Source: Thalassolituus hydrocarboniclasticus (GTDB lineage Bacteria; Pseudomonadota; Gammaproteobacteria; Pseudomonadales; Oceanobacteraceae). Taken from it: a stretch of 32,000 nt of DNA. Positions 20,967 to 31,609 of this stretch are shown here, in pieces (within the stretch, counting starts at the first letter, position 1; every line of letters starts with the position of its first letter). The notes beneath the pieces were generated by a model. The model was not told the origin of the DNA, ran no database searches, and saw only the letters and a list, made by a program, of their open reading frames with translations. Position numbers and translations under genes: made by a program. The DNA lies in contig NZ_CP054475.1 in NCBI RefSeq assembly GCF_025345565.1, forward strand, positions 2,844,006 through 2,876,005. The letters are read 5' to 3'.

Positions 20967-22985
20967 ATGGCTAGCGCACAACTACAGACCGTCGCCCGCA
21001 ACGGTACAGGTGAATACCGCCACCTGTATGAACTGGCGAGCAAGCTGTACAGCGATGCGGTCGCACAGCAGGATGAACACCTGCTGCAGGAAGCCTGTGC
21101 GCTGGCAGAAGCAGCACAGCAGCTGCGCCCCGACAACCTTGCCGGATTAAATCTTCTTGCCCGGATTGAATTACAGCAGCACCATCTGGCGGCCGCGGAA
21201 TACTGGGTAAACCGTGGTCTGGCACTTAAACCAGACAGCGCCAGCCTGCTGTACAGTGCAGGCCATATTGCGCTGAGCCAGCAACAGCTGGATAAAGCCG
21301 AGGATTATTTCACCCGCTCCAGCCGTATCTCACGGGTGGCCACTAAAGCAGCCAACTTTCTTGCCCACGTTAAATTATTACAGGGCGATTATGTTGAAGC
21401 ATTCCGTCATTATCGTGAACTGGTCAAAACCCAGTCACGCGACAAACAGATCCGCAGTAAATTATTTGAATCCGCCTCACAGGTTATTGCAGATTTTTAT
21501 TCGGAAGAGCTGGAACAGGATCTGTTACGCTACCTCGACTTTACTGATACCGATCACAGCCAGTTACGCAGCCTGACCACCTCACTGCTGAAACATAAAT
21601 TACGGCTATCTGAAGCCGGATGTCCGCTTGAGCTGGAAACCATTGCCAGCGATAACCTGCTGTTAAAATCCCTGACCCGTTTTTATTTTTGCGACCCGCT
21701 GATTGAACGTCTGCTGCTGACGCTGAGAAAATCATTGTTATTATCCTGCAGCAGCAATCTTGCAATAAAAAAAGACCTGCTACCTCTGGTAACTTCGCTG
21801 GCGCACCAGTGTTCGCTGAATGAGTCCGTATGGTATACAACTACTCAGGAAGAAGCTCTGGTACAGCAGTTGGAAATGCTGTGCAGTAAAATGCTGAACA
21901 TCGATGAATTACAGGCAACCGATATTTATCCGGCTATGCTGCTGGTGCAAATGTACAAGCCGCTAATTCATTGTGAGTTTTTTCAGGCACTGACTCAGAA
22001 GAAACTGCAATGGCCAAAAATGATGGATAGTCTGGTTCGTTCGGCAGTCACTGAACAGCAGAACCTGAGTCGCCTTCTTGATACCATTCCAACGATTGGC
22101 ATCTGCGCCGACAGTACCTCAAAGAAAGTTCAGCAACAGTATAATCAGAATCCTTATCCACGCTGGACCGATATCGGTTACAGCCAGCCGGGCAATTATA
22201 AAACTGCGCTACAGTCTGCTTTTCCACAACATGAACTTCTGCCCCAAACAGACAATGGAACCCTGAACATTCTGGTAGCAGGCTGCGGCACAGGCCGCCA
22301 TGCTATTCGCCTTGCGCAATATTTCACGCAGGTAAAAGTCAGCGCTCTGGACCTGAGCCATAGCGCACTGGCTTATGCCAAATATCAGGCGGAGAAACGC
22401 CACTGCCATAATATTCACTTTATGCAGGGTGATATTCTGCAACTTGATAATCTGCGTGAAACTTTTGACGTAATAGAGTGCTCAGGTGTTTTACATCATA
22501 TGCACTCCCCCATCACCGGTCTGCGGGCATTAGCACAACAGCTGAAATCCGGCGGCGTAATCAAAATTGCGCTTTACAGTGCCACTGCGCGCCAGAAAAT
22601 CAGTGAGCTGCGTAAACTCTGGGGAAATAAACTACCAGGGAAACCTGCAGAAATGCGTCTGATAAGGGAAGCTCTGCTGCAGGGGTCTATCGAAGGTGAT
22701 TGGAAAGAGATCTATAATTCACCGGATTTTTACAGCCTGAGCGCCTGTCGTGATCTGCTGTTTCATGAGCAGGAGCATGTGTTTGATGTACTGGAATTAG
22801 AAGACTTTCTGGCCGGAGCCGGACTGGAATGGATTGGCATGTTGCCACCGCCCGACTCGCAGGAATTACTCAGCCTTACAGGTAAACACAGCAGCCGGAT
22901 TAGCCCCGAAGAATGGCACACGCTGGAACAGAACAACCCGCAACTCTTTGCCGGCATGTACCAGTTTTATGCACGTAAGCCTTAA
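20967..22985 (+). CDS. TPR-repeat protein fused to a class I SAM-dependent methyltransferase domain; putative flagellar-locus modification enzyme
   Basis: N-terminal TPR-like helices (ALAEAAQQLRPDNLAGLNLLARIELQQHHLAAAEYWVNRGLALKPDSASLLYSAGHIALSQQQLDKAEDYFTRSSRI); C-terminal motif I LNILVAGCGTGRHAIRLAQYF, VSALDLSHSALAYAK, FDVIECSGVLHHMHSP. Confidence 0.9.
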   Translation: MASAQLQTVARNGTGEYRHLYELASKLYSDAVAQQDEHLLQEACALAEAAQQLRPDNLAGLNLLARIELQQHHLAAAEYWVNRGLALKPDSASLLYSAGHIALSQQQLDKAEDYFTRSSRISRVATKAANFLAHVKLLQGDYVEAFRHYRELVKTQSRDKQIRSKLFESASQVIADFYSEELEQDLLRYLDFTDTDHSQLRSLTTSLLKHKLRLSEAGCPLELETIASDNLLLKSLTRFYFCDPLIERLLLTLRKSLLLSCSSNLAIKKDLLPLVTSLAHQCSLNESVWYTTTQEEALVQQLEMLCSKMLNIDELQATDIYPAMLLVQMYKPLIHCEFFQALTQKKLQWPKMMDSLVRSAVTEQQNLSRLLDTIPTIGICADSTSKKVQQQYNQNPYPRWTDIGYSQPGNYKTALQSAFPQHELLPQTDNGTLNILVAGCGTGRHAIRLAQYFTQVKVSALDLSHSALAYAKYQAEKRHCHNIHFMQGDILQLDNLRETFDVIECSGVLHHMHSPITGLRALAQQLKSGGVIKIALYSATARQKISELRKLWGNKLPGKPAEMRLIREALLQGSIEGDWKEIYNSPDFYSLSACRDLLFHEQEHVFDVLELEDFLAGAGLEWIGMLPPPDSQELLSLTGKHSSRISPEEWHTLEQNNPQLFAGMYQFYARKP

Positions 22986-23005: not shown

Positions 23006-23683
23006 TTACAGCTGCCACTGTATCGGTGCTTCACCACGGGAAATAAGGTAATCGTTAATACGTGAAAACTGGTGATTCCCGAAAAATCCGCGGTGCGCGG
23101 ATAACGGTGAAGGATGCACCGACTTCAGCACCAGGTGTTTCTGCGGATCAATGACGGCACCTTTTTTCTGCGCATAACTGCCCCAGAGTACAAATACCAA
23201 CCCTTCTCGCTGTTCATTCAGTGCACGGATAGCCGCATCGGTAAATTGCTCCCAGCCTTTGCCCTGATGTGATCCGGCATTGGCCTGTTCCACCGTCAGC
23301 GTTGCATTCAATAATAAAACGCCCTGATCAGCCCACGGGGTCAGATCACCACTGCCACTCATATGCAGACCAAGGTCACCTTCAATTTCTTTAAAAATAT
23401 TCACCAGCGACGGTGGAATTTTTACCCCAGGCTGCACCGAAAAACTTAAACCATGAGCCTGCCCCGGACCGTGGTACGGGTCCTGACCAATAATCACCAC
23501 ACGCACCTGCTGAAAGGGCGTGTGATTAAAGGCATTAAAAATCTGCGGACCCGGTGGAAAAATAACCTTACCCGCCGCCTTCTCTGCCTTGAGAAATTCG
23601 CGCAGATTATGCATATAAGGCTGCTCCAGTTCAGAACCAAGCACTGCCTGCCAGGATGGATGTAATTCTCCGGCTTTTCCCAT
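23006..23683 (-). CDS. ung: Uracil-DNA glycosylase
   Basis: [49 protein letters not shown]. The ORF runs to 23734 but the likely start is ATG 23683. Confidence 0.98.
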
Positions 23684-23742
23684 GATGAATATCCTTAAAA
23701 ACTGTCTGTTAACTGTCCGGGTTGTCTGTGGCAACAGGCCCT

Positions 23743-23772
23743 AACAAAACAGGCAGCCGAAGCTGCCTGTTG
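23743..23772 (-). terminator. Rho-independent terminator downstream of lysS
   Basis: Minus strand reads ACAGGCAGC-TTCG-GCTGCCTGT followed by TTTGTTA; 9 bp stem with UUCG tetraloop, about 20 bp after the lysS stop. Confidence 0.9.
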
Positions 23773-23790
23773 TTATCGTCTGCTCAGCGC

Positions 23791-25323
23791 TTAATCCACC
23801 AGAGGCTTCATGTGCGGGAACAGAATAACGTCTTTAATGGTGTGGCTGTTGGTAAACAGCATCACCAGACGGTCGATACCAATACCTTCACCAGCAGTTG
23901 GTGGCAGACCGTATTCCAGCGCGCGCACGTAGTCTTCGTCGTAGTGCATCGCTTCATCATCGCCGGCGTCTTTTTCTTCAACCTGCTTACGGAAACGGGC
24001 AGCCTGATCTTCGGCATCATTAAGCTCAGAGAAGCCATTGGCCAGCTCACGCCCGCCGACAAAGAATTCAAAGCGGTCGGTCACAAACGGGTTGTCGTCA
24101 TTGCGGCGCGCCAGTGGTGACACTTCCCACGGATATTCGGTAATAAAGGTCGGCTGATCCAGCTTCTCTTCGGCGGTGGCTTCAAAGATTTCACACACCA
24201 GCTTACCGGCACCCCAGCCTGCTTCTTTCGGCCCCAGATGAATACCCACGCTGCGGGCATACTCTTTCAGGGTTTCGATGTTGTTTTCAGCATCGCGCAG
24301 AACAGCCGCGTCCATTTCCGGATTATATTTGAGGATGGCATCGACCATGCTCATACGGGTAAATGGCTGGGCAAAGTCGTAGGTCGCATCGCCGTATTCC
24401 AGCGTAGTGGTACCCAGTACGCTTTCCGCCAGGAAGCGCAGCATGGCTTCCGTGGTATCCATCATATCGCGGTAATCGGCATAGGCCTGATAGAACTCGA
24501 TCATGGTGAATTCAGGATTGTGACGGGTGCTCAGACCTTCGTTACGGAAGTTACGGTTAATCTCGAACACGCGGTCAAAACCGCCCACCACCAGACGCTT
24601 CAGGTACAGCTCCGGTGCAATGCGCAGGAACATATCGATGCCCAGTGCATTGTGGTGGGTTTCAAACGGCTTGGCCGATGCACCACCGGGAATAGTTTGC
24701 AGCATCGGGGTTTCCACTTCCATAAAGCCGCGCTGCGACAGGAAGTAACGGATACCTTCAATAATTTTTGAGCGGATCAGGAAGGTACGGCGGGTATCTT
24801 CGTTAATGATCAGGTCAACGTAGCGCTGACGGTATTTCATTTCCTGGTCGGCCAGACCGTGGAATTTATCCGGCAGCGGACGCAGTGCCTTGGTCAGGAT
24901 GCGGAAGTTGCTGAGCTCGTCGATATCGACATACAGCTCGCCCTTGCCGGACAGGTGTAACGTACCGGAGCCGGCAACGATGTCACCCAGATCGAGCATC
25001 TGCCAGGCTTCGCTTTCTTTCTGCATGCCTTTGGCCATGTAAATCTGGATCGAGCCGGTGCTGTCCTGAATACCCACAAAAGGACCACCGCGACGCATCA
25101 CACGTCCGGCAACAGCAACACGGATACCGGCAGCAGCCAGTTCTTCCTGACTCTTGCTGCCGTGTTCGGCTTTCAGTTCACCGGCCAGATGTTCACGACG
25201 GAAATCGTTCGGGTGAGCATTTGATTTACAGTTGCTGCGCAGCTGTTCAAGCTTGGCACGGCGCTCGGCGATCAGTTTGTTCTCATCCTGAGCTGGCTGC
25301 TCGGTCACTTTGTTGTCTGTCAT
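23791..25323 (-). CDS. lysS: Lysyl-tRNA synthetase, class II
   Basis: Class II motifs: [16 protein letters not shown], [41 protein letters not shown]; full-length 510 aa. Confidence 0.99.
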
Positions 25324-25361
25324 GGTGTTACCCTAAAAATTAGATGATACGAAGCGTGTGG

Positions 25362-26457
25362 TTACAGGCCTTTTTTCAGGCTGGCTTCGATAAACTGGTC
25401 AAGATCGCCGTCCAGTACCGCCTGGGTATTACGGGTTTCAACCCCGGTACGCAGGTCTTTGATACGGGCATCGTCAAGCACGTAAGAACGGATCTGGCTG
25501 CCCCAGCCGATATCCGACTTGGTATCTTCCAGCGCCTGAGCCTCAGCATTACGCTTCTGCATTTCCAGCTCATACAGCTTGGCTTTCAGCTGCTTCATCG
25601 CCTGGTCTTTGTTCTTGTGCTGCGAACGGTCATTCTGGCACTGAGTCACGATACCGGACGGCATGTGGGTAATACGCACCGCCGATTCGGTCCGGTTAAC
25701 GTGCTGACCACCGGCACCGGAGGCGCGGTAAACGTCGATACGCAGGTCGGCCGGGTTAATCTCGATATCGATATTGTCGTCCACTTCCGGCGATACGAAC
25801 ACCGATGAGAATGACGTATGGCGACGGTTGCCGGAGTCAAACGGGCTCTTACGTACCAGACGGTGTACACCGGTTTCGGTACGTAACCAGCCATAGGCAT
25901 ATTCACCCTCGACGCGGATAGTAGCGCCTTTGATGCCCGCGACTTCGCCTTCAGACACTTCCATCAGCTCGCCTTTGAAGCCATGCGCTTCGATCCAGCG
26001 CAGGTACATACGCAGCATCATGTTCGCCCAGTCCTGGGCTTCAGTGCCGCCGGAGCCGGACTGGATTTCAACGTAGCAGTTGTTCGGGTCCAGTTCGCCG
26101 GAGAACATACGGCGGAATTCCAGCACTTCCAGTTCTTTCTGCAGGGCAGCCAGTTCGGCGCGGATATCTTCTACCGAGTTTTCGTCTTCTTCCTCAACGG
26201 CCATGTCCAGCAGGTCACGGGCGTCACTCAGGCCGGTATCCAGGGTATCAATGGTTTTGACCACATTTTCCAGAGCAGAGCGTTCTTTGCCCAGCTCCTG
26301 CGCGCGTTCCGGGTTATCCCAGACGTCGCCCTGTGACAGTTCCTGTTCTACTTCTTCCAGACGCTCAAGCTTGTTGGCGTAGTCAAAGATACCCCCTAAG
26401 CACGTCGGTGCGCGCTGTCAGGTCTTTGATGGTTTCGAGGATCGGATTAATTTCCAA
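25362..26457 (-). CDS. prfB: Peptide chain release factor 2, expressed through a +1 programmed frameshift
   Basis: Zero frame from TTG 26457: (M)[26 protein letters not shown](26385-26383), then +1 into [14 protein letters not shown]..., joining the 300 aa ORF that holds [17 protein letters not shown] and RF2 domain sequence. Confidence 0.95.
26382..26397 (-). promoter_or_regulatory. RF2 programmed +1 frameshift signal
   Basis: Minus strand AGGGGGTATCTTTGAC: SD-like AGGGGG, CTT slippery codon, TGA stop followed by C; the canonical prfB arrangement. Confidence 0.95.
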
Positions 26458-26714
26458 TGTAATACCCTGTTGTCATCCGGCAGACAGGCCGGTCGGAGTC
26501 AGTACGGCCAGCACTCAGGGCGCTGACGACAAAAAAGAGGCAGCATTTTACAGAAGTCAGGCGCCGGATGCGAGTGTGTTTCGGGGGGAGTCAGCGCAGC
26601 AAGACGGCTCAGCCGGGGCCTGAAGAACACAGCGGCTACAGGCAATGATTGACCATCCCGCTGTGGATGTTGCCACCGTTTATGGAACAGACAGGAAATA
26701 TACAATAAGGCTAT

Positions 26715-26762
26715 TGCAAATCCTTCGCATTAAGATTACATTGCAAATCAAACTGATTCGCA
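26715..26762 (+). promoter_or_regulatory. Duplicated Fur-box-like element upstream of bfd
   Basis: TGCAAATCCTTCGCA (26715-26729) and the near-palindrome TGCAAATC-AAACT-GATTCGCA (26742-26762), both of iron-box type, just before the bfd start. Confidence 0.5.
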
Positions 26763-26778
26763 TCCGGATTTGATTACC

Positions 26779-26973
26779 ATGTACGTATGTTTGTGCAAAG
26801 CCGTTACCCAACAACAGATTGAGCAGGCCGTCGAGCAAGGCGACAGCTACGCCCAGATCCGTCAGAAGCTGGGTGTTGGTACTGACTGCGGCTGCTGTGG
26901 CCAGAGCGCCAAGCAGATGATCCGTGAGCATACATCCCGCCTGCCGCCCTGCGAGTTCGCAGTAGCCAGCTGA
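26779..26973 (+). CDS. bfd: Bacterioferritin-associated ferredoxin, (2Fe-2S)
   Basis: MYVCLCKAVTQQQIEQAVEQGDSYAQIRQKLGVGTDCGCCGQSAKQMI: CxC...CxxC BFD-type cysteine pattern. Confidence 0.92.
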   Translation: MYVCLCKAVTQQQIEQAVEQGDSYAQIRQKLGVGTDCGCCGQSAKQMIREHTSRLPPCEFAVAS

Positions 26974-26993
26974 GAAAACTGACATTCAGATGC

Positions 26994-27024
26994 AAAAAAA
27001 GAGCGCCCTGGGCGCTCTTTTTTA
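26994..27024. terminator. Bidirectional Rho-independent terminator between convergent bfd and the SnoaL-like gene
   Basis: AAAAAAAGAGCGCCCTGGGCGCTCTTTTTTA: GAGCGCCC/GGGCGCTC stem with A-tract on the left and T-tract on the right. Confidence 0.93.
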
Positions 27025-27051
27025 TTGGCTGACAAGGACAACACTGAGCCT

Positions 27052-27489
27052 TTATCCGGCTGCCCGTACCGGACCATTTCCCCAGTCCTGAGCCATCTGA
27101 CGCTGCAGCCCGGCCAGATCGACCAGTGTATTCTGGCTGCAGACTCTGCCCCGGCGGATTTCCCAGGTAGACACTGCGCTGAAGCTAATCACTTTATTAT
27201 TGGGAGGAAAACCGAACAGGGGTTTCTGAAAGGAGCCGCTGAATGTCGATATCGTTATAACGCGATCATCTTCAGCCATGATGTCTTCAACCGACACATC
27301 AAGATCGGCAATCGAAGTGCGGATTTGTTTGACGTATTCAACGAAGGTATCAATGTCTTTAAAACCTTCGGCAAAGGTCGTGTGGTAAACAAAATCGGGA
27401 GTCGCAATCTGACGCAGCAAATTGAAACGGCCGGTATTCCAGGACAGATTAATAAAGTGTTCGACGAGTTGTTTGTTGCGCTCTGACAT
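27052..27489 (-). CDS. SnoaL-like / NTF2-fold protein (polyketide cyclase-like family), function unknown
   Basis: MSERNKQLVEHFINLSWNTGRFNLLRQIATPDFVYHTTFAEGFKDIDTFVEYVKQIRTSIADLDVSVEDIMAEDDRVITISTFSGSF...STWEIRRGRVCSQNTLVDLAGLQRQMAQ. Confidence 0.8.
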   Translation of the reverse strand: MSERNKQLVEHFINLSWNTGRFNLLRQIATPDFVYHTTFAEGFKDIDTFVEYVKQIRTSIADLDVSVEDIMAEDDRVITISTFSGSFQKPLFGFPPNNKVISFSAVSTWEIRRGRVCSQNTLVDLAGLQRQMAQDWGNGPVRAAG

Positions 27490-27630
27490 GGCGGATCCTT
27501 GCCTTACACAGTGAACATTCCTTTAAACAAGCCACTGTCAGCCTGCTTATCTATGTCTCGGACATTCTGGGTCACAGTGACGTAATTTTCCACTCTAATA
27601 TTTTGTAAGATATCTCGCACAACAATGCGC

Positions 27631-27653
27631 GATCACCCCGCTATGGAGTGATC
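27631..27653 (-). terminator. Hairpin just downstream of the fliD stop; weak terminator or mRNA 3' structure
   Basis: GATCACCCC (27631-27639) pairs with GGAGTGATC (27645-27653) with one mismatch; no clear U-tract on the minus transcript. Confidence 0.4.
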
Positions 27654-27658
27654 ACGGT

Positions 27659-30600
27659 TTATTTCTTGGAGTTATTCATTGCTTCAAACTGCTGCTTCAC
27701 ATAATCCAGAGTAGTATTAAGAGTGGAAATAATGGAGTCGTTGTACAGGAACTGGGCTTTAAGCCGCGCCTCCTGCGCAGAAATCCGCGCTTCCATACGG
27801 CTGCGATCTTCATCAACCGCTTCCAGTTCATCATCCAGCCCCGACTGTTTAACCCCGATGACACTCTTCTGGCCATTAAGGAAACTGTCCATAATATCTT
27901 TCAGTTGATCGCCGAAGCCGGTGATATAGGTCACACTGCCACGCTCGCCGACATTGCCACCGGTCACTTTCAGACGCAGACCGGAAGCATCATCGATCGT
28001 ACCCACCTGGTCTTTACCCGGCTCGCCATCACCCGCGCCCCGGACAAAACCAAAAACAGCAGCGGCTTCATTGGAAAAATCCATTATTTCAACAGACGAT
28101 GACGCACCGGTTGAAGCAGAAATAATGCCGAATTTATTATTGGCAAAGGATGCAGGGTCATCTGTAAATTCTACTTTTACAGCAATACTTTCATCTTTAA
28201 ATGCTGCGGTATCATTAATCGCCTGCTGCAGTGCCTGAGCCAGAGTTGCACCACTGTTGTAGGTCGCAGGCTGATTTAATGTTACTTCGGCTTCAACACC
28301 ATCGATCTTAATTTTAAAGGTGTTATTGGTTGCATCGATATTCACCGGGGTCGAAAAGTCCGCCGCTTCATTACCGATGTAATAGCCATTACTGGCTTTC
28401 ACATTACCATCTACCGCTCGCAGGAACTGGCCGCTACCCGTTGCTTCAATACCGTTGATGGTACCGGCAACGTCTTTGCCTTTAGCCGTTGATGGCGAGT
28501 ACTGACTGACATCCTGCAGGCCGAGGAAAGCGATGGATGAGCTGTCCAGTCCGGTAAAACCAACAGCTGTGCCCTGACCACCAATGGTGATATTCAGGGA
28601 GCCCAGATCTGATTCCGGATCGTAAACATAATCAACCACGGCATCCAGATCGTAGCCAAAGGTTCTGGAGGTGTCGGTCAGGCCGAGTCCGTCGTAACCA
28701 TTACTGACGGTTTCAGCCGCAAGGCCCAGCGAGCTTAGCGCTGTACCGCCAAGGTTTTTAATTTCCAGAGCGGCACCGGAGCCAAAGGTCGCAGCGGTTT
28801 TAACACCGTCTTTACTCTGGGTTTCAAAGTACAGCTGACCGCTGTCATCAACGCGGGCTTTCACATCTCCGGCAGCAAATTGCCCGGTCGCAGCCAGTGC
28901 CGTATCCAGCGCCTGCTGAATAACAATCAGATTAGAATCGGCATTATTACTGCCCGTTGTGCCATCACCGCTTACATCCACATTGATGTCGACGCCATCC
29001 AGTGTCAGGGTGAAGGTTGCATTCTGCCCGCCACTGAAATCAATACCGGCAGAAATATCGGCAAAACTGCTGCTTTGTGCACCACGGCCGTCGCTGACAA
29101 CTTCAATATATTCTTCGTGTCCGGTTGCTACCGTAGTTAATTTCAACCCGGTTCCGTCCAGACTGGCGCTGACCACACCTGCACCAAAAGCATTATCCAG
29201 GGCGGTCTGAATATCGACGATGTTGTCACCGGAGTCGCTGTTCACCAGCACATCTTTTTCCACACCCGACACATTCAGGCGGAAGCCGGCATTAGTCGCC
29301 GAAAAATCAATGTTGGTGCTGATATCACGGGTTGCCGTTGCAGTTTCCGCGCCTTTAACCGCACCGGCAAAATTAGCATCAGCGGCCAGCGTAATATTTA
29401 ACTGATTCTGAATCTCTGCCGCTAACGCATCGCCTGTTGCATAAGTACCGGCCGGAACAGATACCTTGGTGGCACTTTCGATACCATCGACCTGTACGTT
29501 AAATTCTACCGGTGAGCCAAAGGTCAGCCCCGGATCTTTACCGTTAGTCTGTACGCCCTGAGTACCATTAAGGCCCAGCTGCACATCCGAAGTATTAGTG
29601 CCAACCGCAGTCAGCTCAATACTGCGCGCCGTGCCTTCGGCCACGGTTTCAAAAATCAGATAGCCGTTGTCATCAAAGGACGCCGTTACCTGGCCATTCA
29701 GTGCGGTTGCATCAATAGCAGTCTGGATAGCCTGCAGGGTATCTTTCCTGTCACCAAATACCCCATCACCATTCAGATCCTGGCCATTGGCATTCTGATT
29801 AACCACAACAGCTACCGGACCATTACCATCAACGTCGAGAGAAAAGCTCGCGTTACTGACCGAAAAATTGATTCCGGTACTGGCAGAAACTGAGGTATTA
29901 CCAATCTGAGTAGTCGCACCTTTACCATTAAAAGCTTCGGCATTCAGCGTGGTCAGCTCGACGCCTTGATAGGTACCCTGACCAAGCTTATTAAAGCCCA
30001 GCGTGTTGGCCAGATTAGGATCGACAGCCGCAAAATACACCTGTGACTCGGAGCCGTATTTGTTTGAGGTAATGGAAAAGTTTTTATCCGTAGCACTGTA
30101 ATCAACCGAAACACTGTGCCCATATTTAGACAGGGTTTCACTGCTGTTAATCTGCAGCGCCAATTGCTTGGCCAGATCCTCACCAGAGCTGTAACTGCCA
30201 TGGGTCAGCTCAATACTGGCGGTCTGACCATTTACGTTAATACGGAAATTATCGTTGCTTTCATCAATCACAACCGGCGAAGAAAAATCCAGCGAAGACA
30301 GTGATCCACCAACGTATTTAGCCTGACTCGCTAATTGAGTAATATTGACGTCATAGGTGCCCGGCTTGGTATTAATCGAGTCGTTGACATAAGTAATCTG
30401 GCTGTCGGTGGTGGTACCGGATTTAGCCAGCAGGCCCACAATAGACGCCCGGTCTTCTGTCATCGCTTTTTTGAATTTGGCCGTATTAAAATCCAGCTGG
30501 TAGTCATTATCCCGGTTGGTATCAACCCCCAGCTCGGTCAGTGAGCGGTATTTACCGGTTAAGCCAACGATAGGTTCGCTGATCATCGCGCGGATCTGCG

Positions 30601-31609
30601 ACATCATCGTACGGATGGTAGAGTCACCCAGTAACAGGCCCGCCTGTTGCTTGTCCACGTCATAACCGGACAGATCATCAACAAAGGTTTTCAGCTCATT
30701 ATAGGCATCGACAAAACCCTGAATACTTTCCGACAGTTTGTCGGTATCGGCACTGACTGTAACGCTGATGTTTTTACCGACATCGGCATTTTTAAGATTA
30801 AGGGTCACCCCTTTAATCACTTCATCTACGGAGTTACTGCTGCGGGTGATGGTCAGGCCGTTAACATTCAGCTGCGCGTCTTCGCCGCGGCTGGTCTGGC
30901 TCATATTGGCGGCAGTATTCTGGTTTTCATTAAAGGCCAGTGCACCCAGCCCGCCACTGAGCATCGCGCCGGACTCGTCCAGCGCGACAATACGCATGGC
31001 ATTTTCAGCCCCGGTTTCTTCCGAGGTCATCAGCAGACGATAGCCGCTGCCATCGTTGATGATACTGGCGGTTACACCCATATCGGCATTATTGATCGCG
31101 TCGCGGATACCGCTGAGGGTGCGGTTGGAGTCGTCGATAGTAATGGTTTTGCCGAGACGATCCGGATTCAGGTCTTGGCTGACAAAATTGCCGCCGGCGC
31201 CATAGGTGATATCACCAAAGGTAAATACCAGTTTTCCGATACCAATAATTTCGTCAAAGCTGCTGTAGGTTTGTGTTGCCAGGGAATGGGATTTAGCCGT
31301 GTTCAGCACTTCGACATTATAGGTGCCCGGCTCGGACAGGCTGGAGGTTGTTGCGGTCAGAATATCTTCATCAGACGACGTCGCCGTGGTTGAGCTTACC
31401 AGACTCGGGCTGGACAAATTGTTAGCCGCAGACTGTACCTTCGCCATCATCGACTGAATTTCACCATAGGCGGTGATTTTGGCTTCCACCAGCTGCTGAC
31501 GGCTATCCAGACGCAGCGATGTTGCCTCTTTCTCTGCACTGATGATTTTTTCCACCAGATCCGTAGTCAGAACTCCTGACCCTAATCCCAGTGATTCTAT
31601 CGACGCCAT
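27659..31609 (-). CDS. fliD: Flagellar hook-associated protein 2 (filament cap) FliD, unusually large at 1316 aa
   Basis: FliD N-terminus (MASIESLGLGSGVLTTDLVEKIISAEKE), FliD_C core (AQLNVNGLTITRSSNSVDEVIKGVTLNLK..., VDAYNELKTFVDDLSGYD...GLLLGDSTIRTMMSQIR) and coiled-coil C-terminus (RMEARISAQEARLKAQFLYNDSIISTLNTTLDYVKQQFEAMN). A single open frame throughout. Confidence 0.96.
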   Translation of the reverse strand: MASIESLGLGSGVLTTDLVEKIISAEKEATSLRLDSRQQLVEAKITAYGEIQSMMAKVQSAANNLSSPSLVSSTTATSSDEDILTATTSSLSEPGTYNVEVLNTAKSHSLATQTYSSFDEIIGIGKLVFTFGDITYGAGGNFVSQDLNPDRLGKTITIDDSNRTLSGIRDAINNADMGVTASIINDGSGYRLLMTSEETGAENAMRIVALDESGAMLSGGLGALAFNENQNTAANMSQTSRGEDAQLNVNGLTITRSSNSVDEVIKGVTLNLKNADVGKNISVTVSADTDKLSESIQGFVDAYNELKTFVDDLSGYDVDKQQAGLLLGDSTIRTMMSQIRAMISEPIVGLTGKYRSLTELGVDTNRDNDYQLDFNTAKFKKAMTEDRASIVGLLAKSGTTTDSQITYVNDSINTKPGTYDVNITQLASQAKYVGGSLSSLDFSSPVVIDESNDNFRINVNGQTASIELTHGSYSSGEDLAKQLALQINSSETLSKYGHSVSVDYSATDKNFSITSNKYGSESQVYFAAVDPNLANTLGFNKLGQGTYQGVELTTLNAEAFNGKGATTQIGNTSVSASTGINFSVSNASFSLDVDGNGPVAVVVNQNANGQDLNGDGVFGDRKDTLQAIQTAIDATALNGQVTASFDDNGYLIFETVAEGTARSIELTAVGTNTSDVQLGLNGTQGVQTNGKDPGLTFGSPVEFNVQVDGIESATKVSVPAGTYATGDALAAEIQNQLNITLAADANFAGAVKGAETATATRDISTNIDFSATNAGFRLNVSGVEKDVLVNSDSGDNIVDIQTALDNAFGAGVVSASLDGTGLKLTTVATGHEEYIEVVSDGRGAQSSSFADISAGIDFSGGQNATFTLTLDGVDINVDVSGDGTTGSNNADSNLIVIQQALDTALAATGQFAAGDVKARVDDSGQLYFETQSKDGVKTAATFGSGAALEIKNLGGTALSSLGLAAETVSNGYDGLGLTDTSRTFGYDLDAVVDYVYDPESDLGSLNITIGGQGTAVGFTGLDSSSIAFLGLQDVSQYSPSTAKGKDVAGTINGIEATGSGQFLRAVDGNVKASNGYYIGNEAADFSTPVNIDATNNTFKIKIDGVEAEVTLNQPATYNSGATLAQALQQAINDTAAFKDESIAVKVEFTDDPASFANNKFGIISASTGASSSVEIMDFSNEAAAVFGFVRGAGDGEPGKDQVGTIDDASGLRLKVTGGNVGERGSVTYITGFGDQLKDIMDSFLNGQKSVIGVKQSGLDDELEAVDEDRSRMEARISAQEARLKAQFLYNDSIISTLNTTLDYVKQQFEAMNNSKK
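28040..30289 (-). repeat. Divergent repeated beta-rich modules inserted in FliD (about aa 441-1190)
   Basis: Recurring pattern (I/V)(N/D)(F/I)..(T)N..F.(L/I).(V/I)(D/N)G....V......L..(I/A)(Q)..(I/L)(D/N).......VxAxxDDxGxLxFxT, e.g. GINFSVSNASFSLDVDG, NIDFSATNAGFRLNVSG, GIDFSGGQNATFTLTLDG, PVNIDATNNTFKIKIDG, PVVIDESNDNFRINVNG. Confidence 0.8.

What the first reader, a model, noticed from the sequence alone, without database searches (positions are those of the whole stretch)
28010..30409. Giant FliD filament cap with an ~800 aa repetitive insertion
Typical FliD proteins are roughly 450-700 aa; this one is 1316 aa in a single open frame. The conserved N-terminal region and C-terminal coiled coil are intact. 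From about aa 400 to 1200 there are at least five recurring beta-rich modules with the pattern 'IxFSxxNxxFxLxVDG ... LxxIQxALDxA ... VxAxxDDxGxLxFxT'. The cap may carry a large surface-exposed array that could act as an adhesin, a shield, or a phage/receptor-evasion surface. Sequence divergence between modules argues against a recent assembly duplication.
Basis: partly seen in the sequence, partly recalled or inferred. Interest (0 to 1): 0.78.

Follow-up and report, generated by a model that had tools for sequence, protein, structure and literature searches.

The report
Giant flagellar cap matching giant flagellins
This is a real 1316-residue flagellar filament cap protein (FliD) in which a normal-sized cap carries an 847-residue insertion of six repeated domains; it is fixed across a whole family of marine bacteria, the same family known for giant flagellins and extra-thick flagella.

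Summary
ORF 27659-31609 (-) encodes a 1316-aa FliD, 100% identical to Thalassolituus hydrocarboniclasticus FliD. Without aa 402-1248 the protein is a complete 469-aa canonical FliD. The 847-aa insertion replaces a ~17-residue linker between the last D1 element and the C-terminal D1/D0 helix.

AlphaFold2 (pLDDT 87) and profile comparisons resolve a D2-like beta frame carrying six ~100-aa D3-like modules of two subtypes. Two modules are nested inside a third. The closest folds are the FliD head domains of H. pylori, C. jejuni, E. coli and Serratia. There are no DNA-level repeats, so the duplications are old.

The protein is not a peculiarity of this genome. 66 species from Thalassolituus to Saccharospirillum carry the whole insertion. 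Complete FliD genes measure about 1300-1340 aa, and the insertion is as conserved as the core.

Wherever the upstream DNA showed a flagellin, flaG and a large or giant flagellin (732-1361 aa) lay directly upstream. Other lineages show the same scaling: FliD 939, 1073 and 1408 aa with flagellins of 713, 843 and 1393 aa. A one-module 677-aa FliD sits beside a 396-aa flagellin.

Most likely this is an enlarged cap adapted to thick, giant-flagellin filaments. A fast-evolving evasion surface is disfavoured and an adhesin role is untested. It is a new variant of a known kind, of moderate interest.

The parts
27659..31609 (-). fliD, 1316-aa filament cap protein (stop codon included)
   Evidence: ORF. 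Pfam FliD_N and FliD_C. 100% identical to T. hydrocarboniclasticus FliD.
31397..31609 (-). aa 1-71: N-terminal D0/D1 segment
   Evidence: Aligns to Salmonella FliD residue 1 onward. FliD_N covers aa 11-108.
30800..31396 (-). aa 72-270: canonical head (D2-D3), normal size, with a Flagellin_IN-like motif at aa 155-196
   Evidence: The domain limits are approximate and come from alignment to Salmonella and E. coli FliD.
30407..30799 (-). aa 271-401: C-terminal part of D1 (helices 289-314 and 330-344, hairpin 362-374, short helices 376-394)
   Evidence: AF2 model. Aligns to E. coli, Pseudomonas and Salmonella D1.
27866..30406 (-). aa 402-1248: the 847-aa insertion (87 kDa, pI 4.06, no Cys or Trp)
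30302..30406 (-). aa 402-436: frame segment 1 (beta strands), D2-like
   Evidence: AF2 strands. Weak alignment to the Salmonella D1-to-D2 entry. hhalign of frame against the protein's own D2 gives 60%, E 9e-5.
29987..30301 (-). aa 437-541: module M1 (type A)
   Evidence: hhalign M1-M6 99.5% (E 7.5e-23) and M1-M3 97%.
29561..29875 (-). aa 579-683: module M2 (type B)
   Evidence: hhalign M2-M5 98.8%, M2-M4 97.4%, M2-M6 92%. M2 against the protein's own D3 gives 76%, E 2e-5.
29369..29539 (-). aa 691-747: N-terminal half of module M3 (type A)
   Evidence: The concatenated M3 halves align over 95 columns to M1 (97%) and over 88 columns to M6 (97%).
29069..29317 (-). aa 765-847: module M4 (type B), nested inside M3
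28703..29044 (-). aa 856-969: module M5 (type B), nested inside M3
28511..28657 (-). aa 985-1033: C-terminal half of module M3
28364..28489 (-). aa 1041-1082: frame segment 2
   Evidence: AF2 strands. The sequence GKDVAGTINGIEATGSGQFL has its counterpart in the one-module 677/685-aa FliDs.
28031..28363 (-). aa 1083-1193: module M6 (type A)
27917..28009 (-). aa 1201-1231: frame segment 3
   Evidence: AF2 strands.
27662..27916 (-). aa 1232-1316: C-terminal D1/D0 helices (1232-1244 and 1250-1314)
   Evidence: AF2. aa 1249-1314 align to Salmonella FliD 402-467.
27628..27656 (-). terminator-like hairpin (12 pairs) immediately after the fliD stop codon
   Evidence: Consensus scan only.

Best explanation
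The gene encodes the filament cap (FliD/HAP2) of the polar flagellum of a Thalassolituus species. A complete canonical 469-aa FliD (D0-D1-D2-D3-D1-D0) is interrupted by an 847-aa insertion. The insertion sits in the short linker that joins the last D1 element to the long C-terminal D1/D0 helix. It behaves like a second, overgrown head: a D2-like beta frame in three segments carries six ~100-aa D3-like beta/alpha modules. The modules fall into type A (M1, M3, M6) and type B (M2, M4, M5), and M4 and M5 are nested inside M3. They arose by old serial duplications of a single-module version that still exists in ~680-aa FliDs of other bacteria.

Inferred: the C-terminal helices that follow are about 80 residues long and must span D1 plus D0. 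Each of the five subunits should therefore project its 87-kDa array from the head-proximal end of the leg, outward and below the D2-D3 plate. The solved C. jejuni D4 domain lies in this position.

Inferred function: the arrays widen the cap so that it reaches over the thick outer-domain layer of filaments built from large or giant flagellins. There they could hold or guide the very long outer region of each newly exported flagellin while it folds, or stabilise the cap on a >=30 nm tip. The core capping mechanism (legs in the filament end, stepwise rotation) is presumed unchanged.
For: Identity:
- Pfam FliD_N and a split FliD_C.
- Alignment of both ends to Salmonella FliD.
- The core without the insertion is 469 aa.
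- flaG lies upstream in the sister genome, and fliS and fleQ lie downstream.

Architecture:
- AF2 gives pLDDT 87 and 82.
- Module homology by hhalign is 89-99.5%.
- Frame resembles D2 and M2 resembles D3, weakly.
- Foldseek top hits are H. pylori FliD D2-D5 (E 1.5e-7), C. jejuni FliD, and Serratia and E. coli FliD D2-D3 with probability 0.99-1.0.

Constraint:
- 66 species carry the whole insertion.
- Complete FliD genes measure about 1300-1340 aa under a first-ATG ORF call.
- The insertion is as conserved as the core.

Link to giant flagellins:
- Every locus in which a flagellin could be detected upstream of fliD has a 732-1361-aa one there, with flaG confirmed between them in L001.
- Other lineages: FliD 1408 with flagellin 1393; a split 388+1020 FliD with flagellin 1187; FliD 1073 with flagellin 843; FliD 939 with flagellin 713.
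- A one-module 677-aa FliD sits beside a 396-aa flagellin.
- The carriers include genera reported to have giant flagellins. Filaments of >=30 nm were measured in Bermanella marisrubri and Oleibacter marinus, and that paper asks whether other flagellar components are correspondingly large (PMC6248924).
- C. jejuni D4 protrudes from D1 and lies between D3 and the junction layer (PMC7316729; PMC12221982).
Against: - No functional or structural data exist for this protein.
- Within the family FliD length is constant while flagellin length varies almost two-fold, so there is no fine size matching.
- The Salmonella cap (~13 nm) is already narrower than its 24-nm filament (PMC12221982), so a cap need not cover the outer domains.
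- C. jejuni D4 is described as distant from the cap cavity and probably not involved in flagellin incorporation.
- Head domains are partly dispensable or replaceable in Pseudomonas (PMC8533109).
- The co-scaling rests on few phylogenetically independent lineages, and giant-flagellin taxa outside the Gammaproteobacteria were not examined.
- No sequence homology was found between the FliD modules and the flagellin outer region.
- The spatial position of the insertion is inferred. Model coordinates could not be inspected and no pentamer was predicted.
Confidence: 0.6

Rival explanations
1. Tip adhesin. The five arrays are a surface-binding organ at the flagellar tip, for example for attachment to oil droplets, particles or other cells by these hydrocarbon-degrading bacteria. 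Their link with giant flagellins would then be incidental or secondary.
For: FliD acts as an adhesin in P. aeruginosa (mucin), and C. jejuni D4 was proposed to relate to heparin binding (PMC8306008; PMC7316729). The array is large, acidic and presumably exposed. Strong conservation fits binding to a conserved ligand.
Against: No adhesin, lectin or carbohydrate-binding family hits appear in Pfam or NCBIfam. The modules resemble FliD head domains, not known binding domains. An adhesin role does not explain why multi-module FliDs sit beside large flagellins in several lineages.
Confidence: 0.2
2. Domain accretion with little specific function. A head-like domain inserted in the leg was duplicated repeatedly and is retained because it has become structurally entangled with cap folding or oligomerisation. 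It would not serve giant flagellins or adhesion.
For: FliD, flagellin and hook proteins commonly gain outer domains. FliDs with 1, 2, several and at least 9 matched stretches exist (677 to 1860 aa). Head domains are partly dispensable in Pseudomonas.
Against: All six modules are kept with almost no indels down to 43% identity in Saccharospirillum, at the same conservation as the core. The unfolded protein must be exported through the ~2-nm filament channel (PMC9254593), so 847 extra residues are presumably costly (inference). FliD size co-occurs with flagellin size.
Confidence: 0.15
3. Variable shield or evasion surface. The array masks the tip from phages, grazers or immune receptors and evolves to escape them.
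For: It is presumably surface-exposed and repetitive. H. pylori D4/D5 are strongly antigenic.
Against: Length is near-constant and the insertion is as conserved as the core across about 60 species, whereas the adjacent flagellin is the hypervariable partner. No DNA repeats exist that could drive rapid variation.
Confidence: 0.05

Closest known systems
Canonical FliD/HAP2 of Salmonella and E. coli (467-468 aa; PDB 9gnz, 9m6i, 5h5v)
   Same: aa 1-401 and 1249-1314 align collinearly to Salmonella FliD 1-384 and 402-467. The core without the insertion is 469 aa. The order D0-D1-D2-D3-D1-D0 is the same, and there is no Cys.
   Different: 847 aa are inserted in place of a ~17-residue linker before the C-terminal helix. 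The whole protein scores below the NCBIfam equivalog cut-off (250 against 387 bits).
Campylobacter jejuni FliD with extra domain D4 (PDB 6sih, 9gsx)
   Same: An extra beta-rich domain protrudes from the D1 leg rather than from the head. It lies outside and below the D2-D3 plate. Foldseek matches the insertion to this protein at E 1.5e-5 for the best chain.
   Different: C. jejuni has one domain (~640-aa protein) against six modules plus a frame here. No sequence-level similarity was detected between module M1 and any PDB chain. Whether the insertion point is exactly the same was not established.
Helicobacter pylori FliD with D4 and D5 (685 aa; PDB 6iwy)
   Same: It carries extra domains with D2/D3-like folds and is the best structural match to the insertion (E 1.5e-7 and 8e-8).
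   Different: The H. pylori extra domains are described as residing in the head region. NCBIfam profile offsets suggest that, in long-FliD models I take from memory to be the Helicobacter and Vibrio types (PRK08453, PRK08724), the extra residues precede D1c. Here the head is of normal size and the extra domains follow D1c.
One-module ~680-aa FliDs of other bacteria known only from metagenomes (e.g. P0198, P0201)
   Same: They have the same insertion site and a homologous frame plus M1-like module (query 1-140 matches protein ~400-540). They are probably the ancestral state.
   Different: They have one module against six. The example examined sits next to a normal 396-aa flagellin. This class is also not captured at cut-off by any NCBIfam FliD model.
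Giant flagellins of the Oceanospirillales (Thomson et al. 2018, PMC6248924)
   Same: They occur in overlapping genera (Thalassolituus, Oleispira, Bermanella). The flagellin gene lies directly upstream of flaG-fliD. Both grew by internal domain duplication and nesting.
   Different: It is a different protein. No detectable homology exists between the flagellin outer region and the FliD modules. Flagellin length is highly variable whereas FliD length is fixed.

Membership tests
FliD / HAP2 filament cap | N-terminal FliD_N domain (PF02465) | tested here: met
   aa 11-108, E 5e-20, 72 bits against a cut-off of 24.8.
FliD / HAP2 filament cap | FliD_C domain (PF07195) including the C-terminal helix | tested here: met
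   147 bits against a cut-off of 25.4, in two stretches. aa 1249-1314 align to Salmonella FliD 402-467. AF2 predicts a continuous helix at 1250-1314.
FliD / HAP2 filament cap | Head of D2-D3 beta domains between the D1 segments | tested here: met
   aa 72-286 align to crystallised D2-D3 fragments 5xlj, 5h5w and 5h5t.
FliD / HAP2 filament cap | Flagellar late-gene context (flagellin-flaG-fliD-fliS) | tested here: met
   The sister genome L001 has flagellin-flaG-fliD. The window has fliS and fleQ downstream, after an inserted housekeeping block.
FliD / HAP2 filament cap | NCBIfam equivalog score cut-off (PRK08032 and others) | tested here: not met
   The best score is 250 bits against a cut-off of 387. 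This shortfall fits a divergent, interrupted architecture and does not indicate a different family.
FliD / HAP2 filament cap | Pentameric cap at the filament tip, required for flagellin polymerisation | not testable with these tools
   No multimer prediction or experiment was available.
Head-expanded FliD (H. pylori D4/D5 type) | Extra domains inserted within the head region, before the C-terminal D1 helices | tested here: not met
   The head (aa 72-270) is of normal size and the insertion follows D1c at aa 402. In NCBIfam models PRK08724 and PRK08453, D1c sits at profile positions ~430-590 of ~672. Their extra residues therefore precede it. The assignment of these two models to Vibrio and Helicobacter is from memory.
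Leg-inserted FliD (C. jejuni D4 type) | Extra domain protruding from the D1 bundle | tested here: inconclusive
   The insertion lies between the last D1 element and the C-terminal helix. The literature says D4 protrudes from D1. The exact C. jejuni insertion point could not be mapped, and no sequence similarity was found.
Flagellin_IN motif domains (PF07196) | Pfam match at or above the gathering score in the repeated modules | tested here: not met
   The whole protein scores 21.3 bits, below the 22.7 cut-off. The one reported stretch, aa 155-196, lies in the canonical D3.
Known adhesin or carbohydrate-binding domains | Any curated family hit in the insertion | tested here: not met
   No Pfam hit in the insertion reaches its cut-off; the only one listed there is KH_PARP14_8 at aa 766-789, E 0.79, 10 of 27 bits. 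The two stretches scanned on their own, aa 395-560 and 1041-1248, hit no NCBIfam model.

The most novel reading that the evidence does not exclude
The cap's job extends beyond inserting the flagellin D0/D1 core. Five 87-kDa arrays would form an outer skirt or folding platform that co-evolved with giant flagellins. They would retain and organise the 600-1200-residue outer region of each nascent subunit, making the thick (>=30 nm) filament possible. Cap size would then be a general, predictable correlate of flagellin outer-domain mass, and FlgK may be enlarged too.
Probability: 0.3. Interest if true: 0.75.

Novelty: new variant of a known kind. Interest (0 to 1): 0.58.

Why it matters
Thomson et al. 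(2018) showed that giant flagellins make extra-thick filaments and explicitly asked whether other flagellar components are correspondingly large. This locus answers yes for the cap. Bacteria of overlapping genera carry a FliD nearly three times the normal size, under strong constraint. In the few other lineages sampled, cap size rises with flagellin size.

The locus also defines an uncurated FliD architecture: a second, D2/D3-like head inserted after D1c. This architecture ranges from one module (~680 aa) to at least nine matched stretches (1860 aa). No solved structure or NCBIfam model covers these modules.

The idea is directly testable. One can delete or swap modules, or image the filament tip, to ask how a cap copes with subunits whose outer domains far exceed the core. 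In the open literature searched, no paper mentions FliD together with any of these genera.

Tried and rejected
- **Assembly artefact or gene fusion.** Rejected. The same protein is 100% identical in NCBI, and the full-length insertion is present in 66 species.
- **Recent DNA duplication.** Rejected. There are no tandem or long direct repeats.
- **Modules borrowed from the neighbouring giant flagellin.** BLASTP (E 0.14) and profile-profile comparison against 54 flagellins (maximum probability 16%) found nothing.
- **Insertion equals the extra domains of Vibrio-, Helicobacter- or Campylobacter-type long FliDs at sequence level.** No PDB chain or NCBIfam model matches the modules.
- **An 832-aa two-module FliD class as an informative outgroup.** It is rare, sits on a 3-kb contig, and its nearest relatives are the giant forms. 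No flagellin context was obtainable.
- **Apparent intermediate sizes.** Several (771, 1020 aa) turned out to be giant genes split by frameshifts in metagenome contigs.
- **First plain self-BLAST attempts.** They returned only the identity hit. A masked sliding-window version was needed.
- **Exact look-up of the window protein in the contig collection.** It found nothing.
Full report
**Observation**

The window holds a single 1316-aa ORF at 27659..31609 on the minus strand.
- Pfam finds FliD_N at aa 11-108. FliD_C is split: aa 242-406 match profile positions 1-170 of 236, and a second stretch is reported.
- Against solved structures, aa 1-401 align collinearly to Salmonella FliD 1-384 and aa 1249-1314 to Salmonella 402-467.
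- The protein is therefore a complete canonical cap protein interrupted by 847 aa (aa 402-1248; window 27866-30406). These replace a linker of about 17 residues in Salmonella.
- Without the insertion the protein is 469 aa and 50 kDa, against 467 aa for Salmonella FliD. The insertion adds 87 kDa, is acidic (pI 4.06) and has no Cys or Trp, like the rest of the protein.

**Repeats**

Masked sliding-window self-BLAST shows divergent internal repeats, 25-47% identical with E down to 2e-12.

AlphaFold2 on the insertion, with an alignment of 29 homologues, gave a confident model: mean pLDDT 87.1 and pTM 0.61. A second model of aa 230-1316 reproduced the same secondary structure at pLDDT 82.1.

The insertion consists of a beta "frame" in three segments (aa 402-436, 1041-1082, 1201-1231) and six modules of about 100 aa. 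Each module has the pattern beta-beta-alpha-beta-beta-beta, sometimes followed by a short helix.

| Module | Residues | Type |
|---|---|---|
| M1 | 437-541 | A |
| M2 | 579-683 | B |
| M3 | 691-747 + 985-1033 | A |
| M4 | 765-847 | B |
| M5 | 856-969 | B |
| M6 | 1083-1193 | A |

Profile-profile comparison of module sub-alignments gives:
- Type A (M1, M3, M6): 97-99.5% probability, E 1e-11 to 1e-23.
- Type B (M2, M4, M5): 97-99%.
- The two types are linked through M6 (M2 92%, M5 96%, M4 89%).
- The two halves of M3, when joined, align over 95 columns to M1. M4 and M5 are therefore nested inside M3.

No tandem or long direct repeats exist at DNA level, so the duplications are old.

**What the modules are**

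Foldseek against the PDB puts FliD head domains on top:
- H. pylori FliD D2-D5 (6iwy): E 1.5e-7 and 8e-8.
- C. jejuni FliD (9gsx).
- Serratia and E. coli D2-D3 fragments at probability 0.99-1.0.
- P. aeruginosa flagellin D2/D3, more weakly.

At sequence-profile level, M2 resembles the protein's own D3 (76%, E 2e-5) and the frame resembles its own D2 (60%, E 9e-5). The first frame strand (…TTDSQITYVNDSINTKPGTYDVNITQLASQ) aligns weakly to the D1-to-D2 entry of Salmonella FliD.

I read the insertion as a second head: a D2-like frame with D3-like modules inserted into it. This is an inference from moderate evidence. No Pfam hit inside the insertion reaches its cut-off, the two stretches scanned against NCBIfam hit nothing, and the M1 region has no sequence-level PDB match.

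**Position in the cap**

The insertion follows the C-terminal D1 elements: helices 289-314 and 330-344, a hairpin at 362-374, and short helices at 376-394. It precedes helices 1232-1244 and 1250-1314.

About 80 helical residues correspond to roughly 120 Å (from general helix geometry), enough to span D1 plus D0. The insertion should therefore leave the leg at its head-proximal end. This is inferred, because coordinates could not be inspected.

The only solved analogue is the C. jejuni D4 domain. [quoted passage not shown] In the cap-junction complex it lies between a neighbouring D3 and FlgL, far from the cap cavity (PMC12221982).

The extra domains of H. pylori FliD are described as residing in the head region. 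NCBIfam profile offsets suggest the same for two long-FliD models (PRK08453, PRK08724) that I take, from memory, to be the Helicobacter and Vibrio types. That arrangement differs from the one here.

**Distribution**

- The protein is 100% identical to FliD of Thalassolituus hydrocarboniclasticus. Nearly all of the 120 best homologues, down to 59% identity, are 1306-1325 aa; two shorter entries look truncated.
- A scan of one genome per species found 66 loci, nearly all encoding the whole insertion. They span Thalassolituus, Bacterioplanes, Oceanobacter, Bacterioplanoides, Parathalassolituus, Venatoribacter, Oleispira (60-62%), Bermanella (51-55%), Oceaniserpentilla and Saccharospirillum (39-42%).
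- Region by region, the insertion is as conserved as the core, with almost no indels. Examples are Oleispira 61% against 57%, Bermanella 53% against 52%, and Saccharospirillum 43% against 47%.

**Context**

The window is a polar-flagellum and chemotaxis cluster with cheB/D/R, an MCP, cheW, cheA, cheY, fliJIHGFE, fleR/S/Q and fliS. The window ends 391 bp upstream of fliD.

In the 96%-identical T. alkanivorans locus, the genes upstream of fliD are flaG and a 1041-aa flagellin. A Maf glycosyltransferase and sugar-modifying genes lie beyond them.

Across the 66 loci, complete FliD genes measure about 1300-1340 aa under a first-ATG ORF call. The adjacent flagellin, wherever one was detected, ranges from 732 to 1361 aa.

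These are among the genera in which Thomson et al. described giant flagellins. [quoted passage not shown]".

**Beyond the family**

An exhaustive search with the insertion found 401 clusters at E <= 0.001.
- Many FliD-sized proteins of 660-830 aa match only module 1 at the same site (query 1-140 to protein ~400-540) or only the last part of the insertion.
- Larger forms of 939, 1020-1170, 1408 and 1860 aa also exist.

| FliD length (aa) | Adjacent flagellin (aa) |
|---|---|
| 677 (one module) | 396 |
| 939 (Pseudohongiella) | 713 |
| 1073 | 843 (FlgK at least 993) |
| 771+542 (split) | 953 |
| 388+1020 (split) | 1187 |
| 1408 | 1393 |

An orphan 1172-aa FliD and the 1860-aa form gave no flagellin context. 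Cap size thus rises with flagellin size in the few lineages sampled. The sample is small and not phylogenetically corrected.

**Interpretation**

Shown:
- This is a FliD with an old, strongly constrained, six-module head-like insertion after D1c.
- It is fixed in a family that builds flagella from large or giant flagellins.

Inferred:
- The arrays project outward beneath the head plate and adapt the cap to thick filaments. They might do this by retaining or guiding the very long outer region of nascent flagellins, or by stabilising the cap on a wide tip.

Against this reading:
- FliD length does not track flagellin length within the family.
- The Salmonella cap is already narrower than its filament.
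- C. jejuni D4 is thought not to take part in flagellin incorporation.
- The modules show no homology to the flagellin outer region.

Rivals:
- A tip adhesin remains possible, given precedents in P. aeruginosa and C. jejuni.
- A neutral accretion of domains is less likely given the conservation.
- A variable shield or evasion surface is disfavoured by the conservation and fixed length.

**Novelty**

The protein is annotated as FliD in public databases. However, no paper in the searchable library mentions FliD together with any of these genera, and the giant-flagellin paper does not mention the cap.

The architecture is not covered by any solved structure or curated NCBIfam model. I rate it a new variant of a known kind, of moderate interest.

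Noticed in passing
window 23006-27489: A housekeeping block (SnoaL-like gene, prfB, lysS, a UDG-family glycosylase) sits between fliD and the rest of the flagellar cluster. It is present in the Thalassolituus and Bacterioplanes loci. It is absent in Oleispira and Bermanella, where fliD is followed directly by the TPR-methyltransferase, fliS and fleQ.
   Followed up: partly
window 20967-22985 (+): A 672-aa TPR + SAM-methyltransferase gene is transcribed divergently between fliD and fliS. It is conserved in this position in most loci of the family that extend far enough downstream, and a 695-aa relative follows the split fliD in L075. It may be a flagellin-modifying enzyme, but its function was not examined.
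   Followed up: partly
window 26370-26400 (-): prfB carries the classical programmed +1 frameshift site (AGGGGGTATCTTTGAC; CTTTGAC at 26382-26388). This explains why the listed ORF starts late, at a GTG. It is an ordinary feature.
   Followed up: yes
L076 1-1235; L073 1-1661: The hook-filament junction protein FlgK is also very long next to multi-module FliDs: at least 993 aa and at least 888 aa, both cut by the locus end. It is 659 aa next to the one-module 677-aa FliD (L070). Another flagellar component may scale with flagellin size.
   Followed up: no
L068 126-5708 (protein P0180): An 1860-aa FliD from a metagenome has nine stretches matching the modules. It is the largest seen, and fliS follows it, but the contig starts at fliD so the flagellin is unknown.
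   Followed up: partly
L001 691-4860: Upstream of the giant flagellin in the sister species lie a Maf-type glycosyltransferase, a GDP-mannose-dehydratase-like gene and a DegT aminotransferase. This suggests that the flagellin, and perhaps FliD, is glycosylated.
   Followed up: no
L045, L055, L057, L065: MAGs labelled Colwellia, Polaribacter, Crocinitomicaceae and Alkalimonas carry this gammaproteobacterial giant fliD locus at 41-61% identity. Binning contamination or mislabelling is likely, at least for the two Bacteroidota labels.
   Followed up: no
L072 5823-10063; L075 3522-7480; L028: Several apparently mid-sized FliDs are giant genes split into two calls (388+1020, 771+542, and a 694-aa truncation). 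They are probably frameshifts or assembly errors, and they could mislead length surveys.
   Followed up: partly
window 27628-27656 (-): A 12-bp-stem hairpin lies directly after the fliD stop codon and is terminator-like by a consensus scan only. It fits fliD ending a transcription unit before the inserted housekeeping genes.
   Followed up: no
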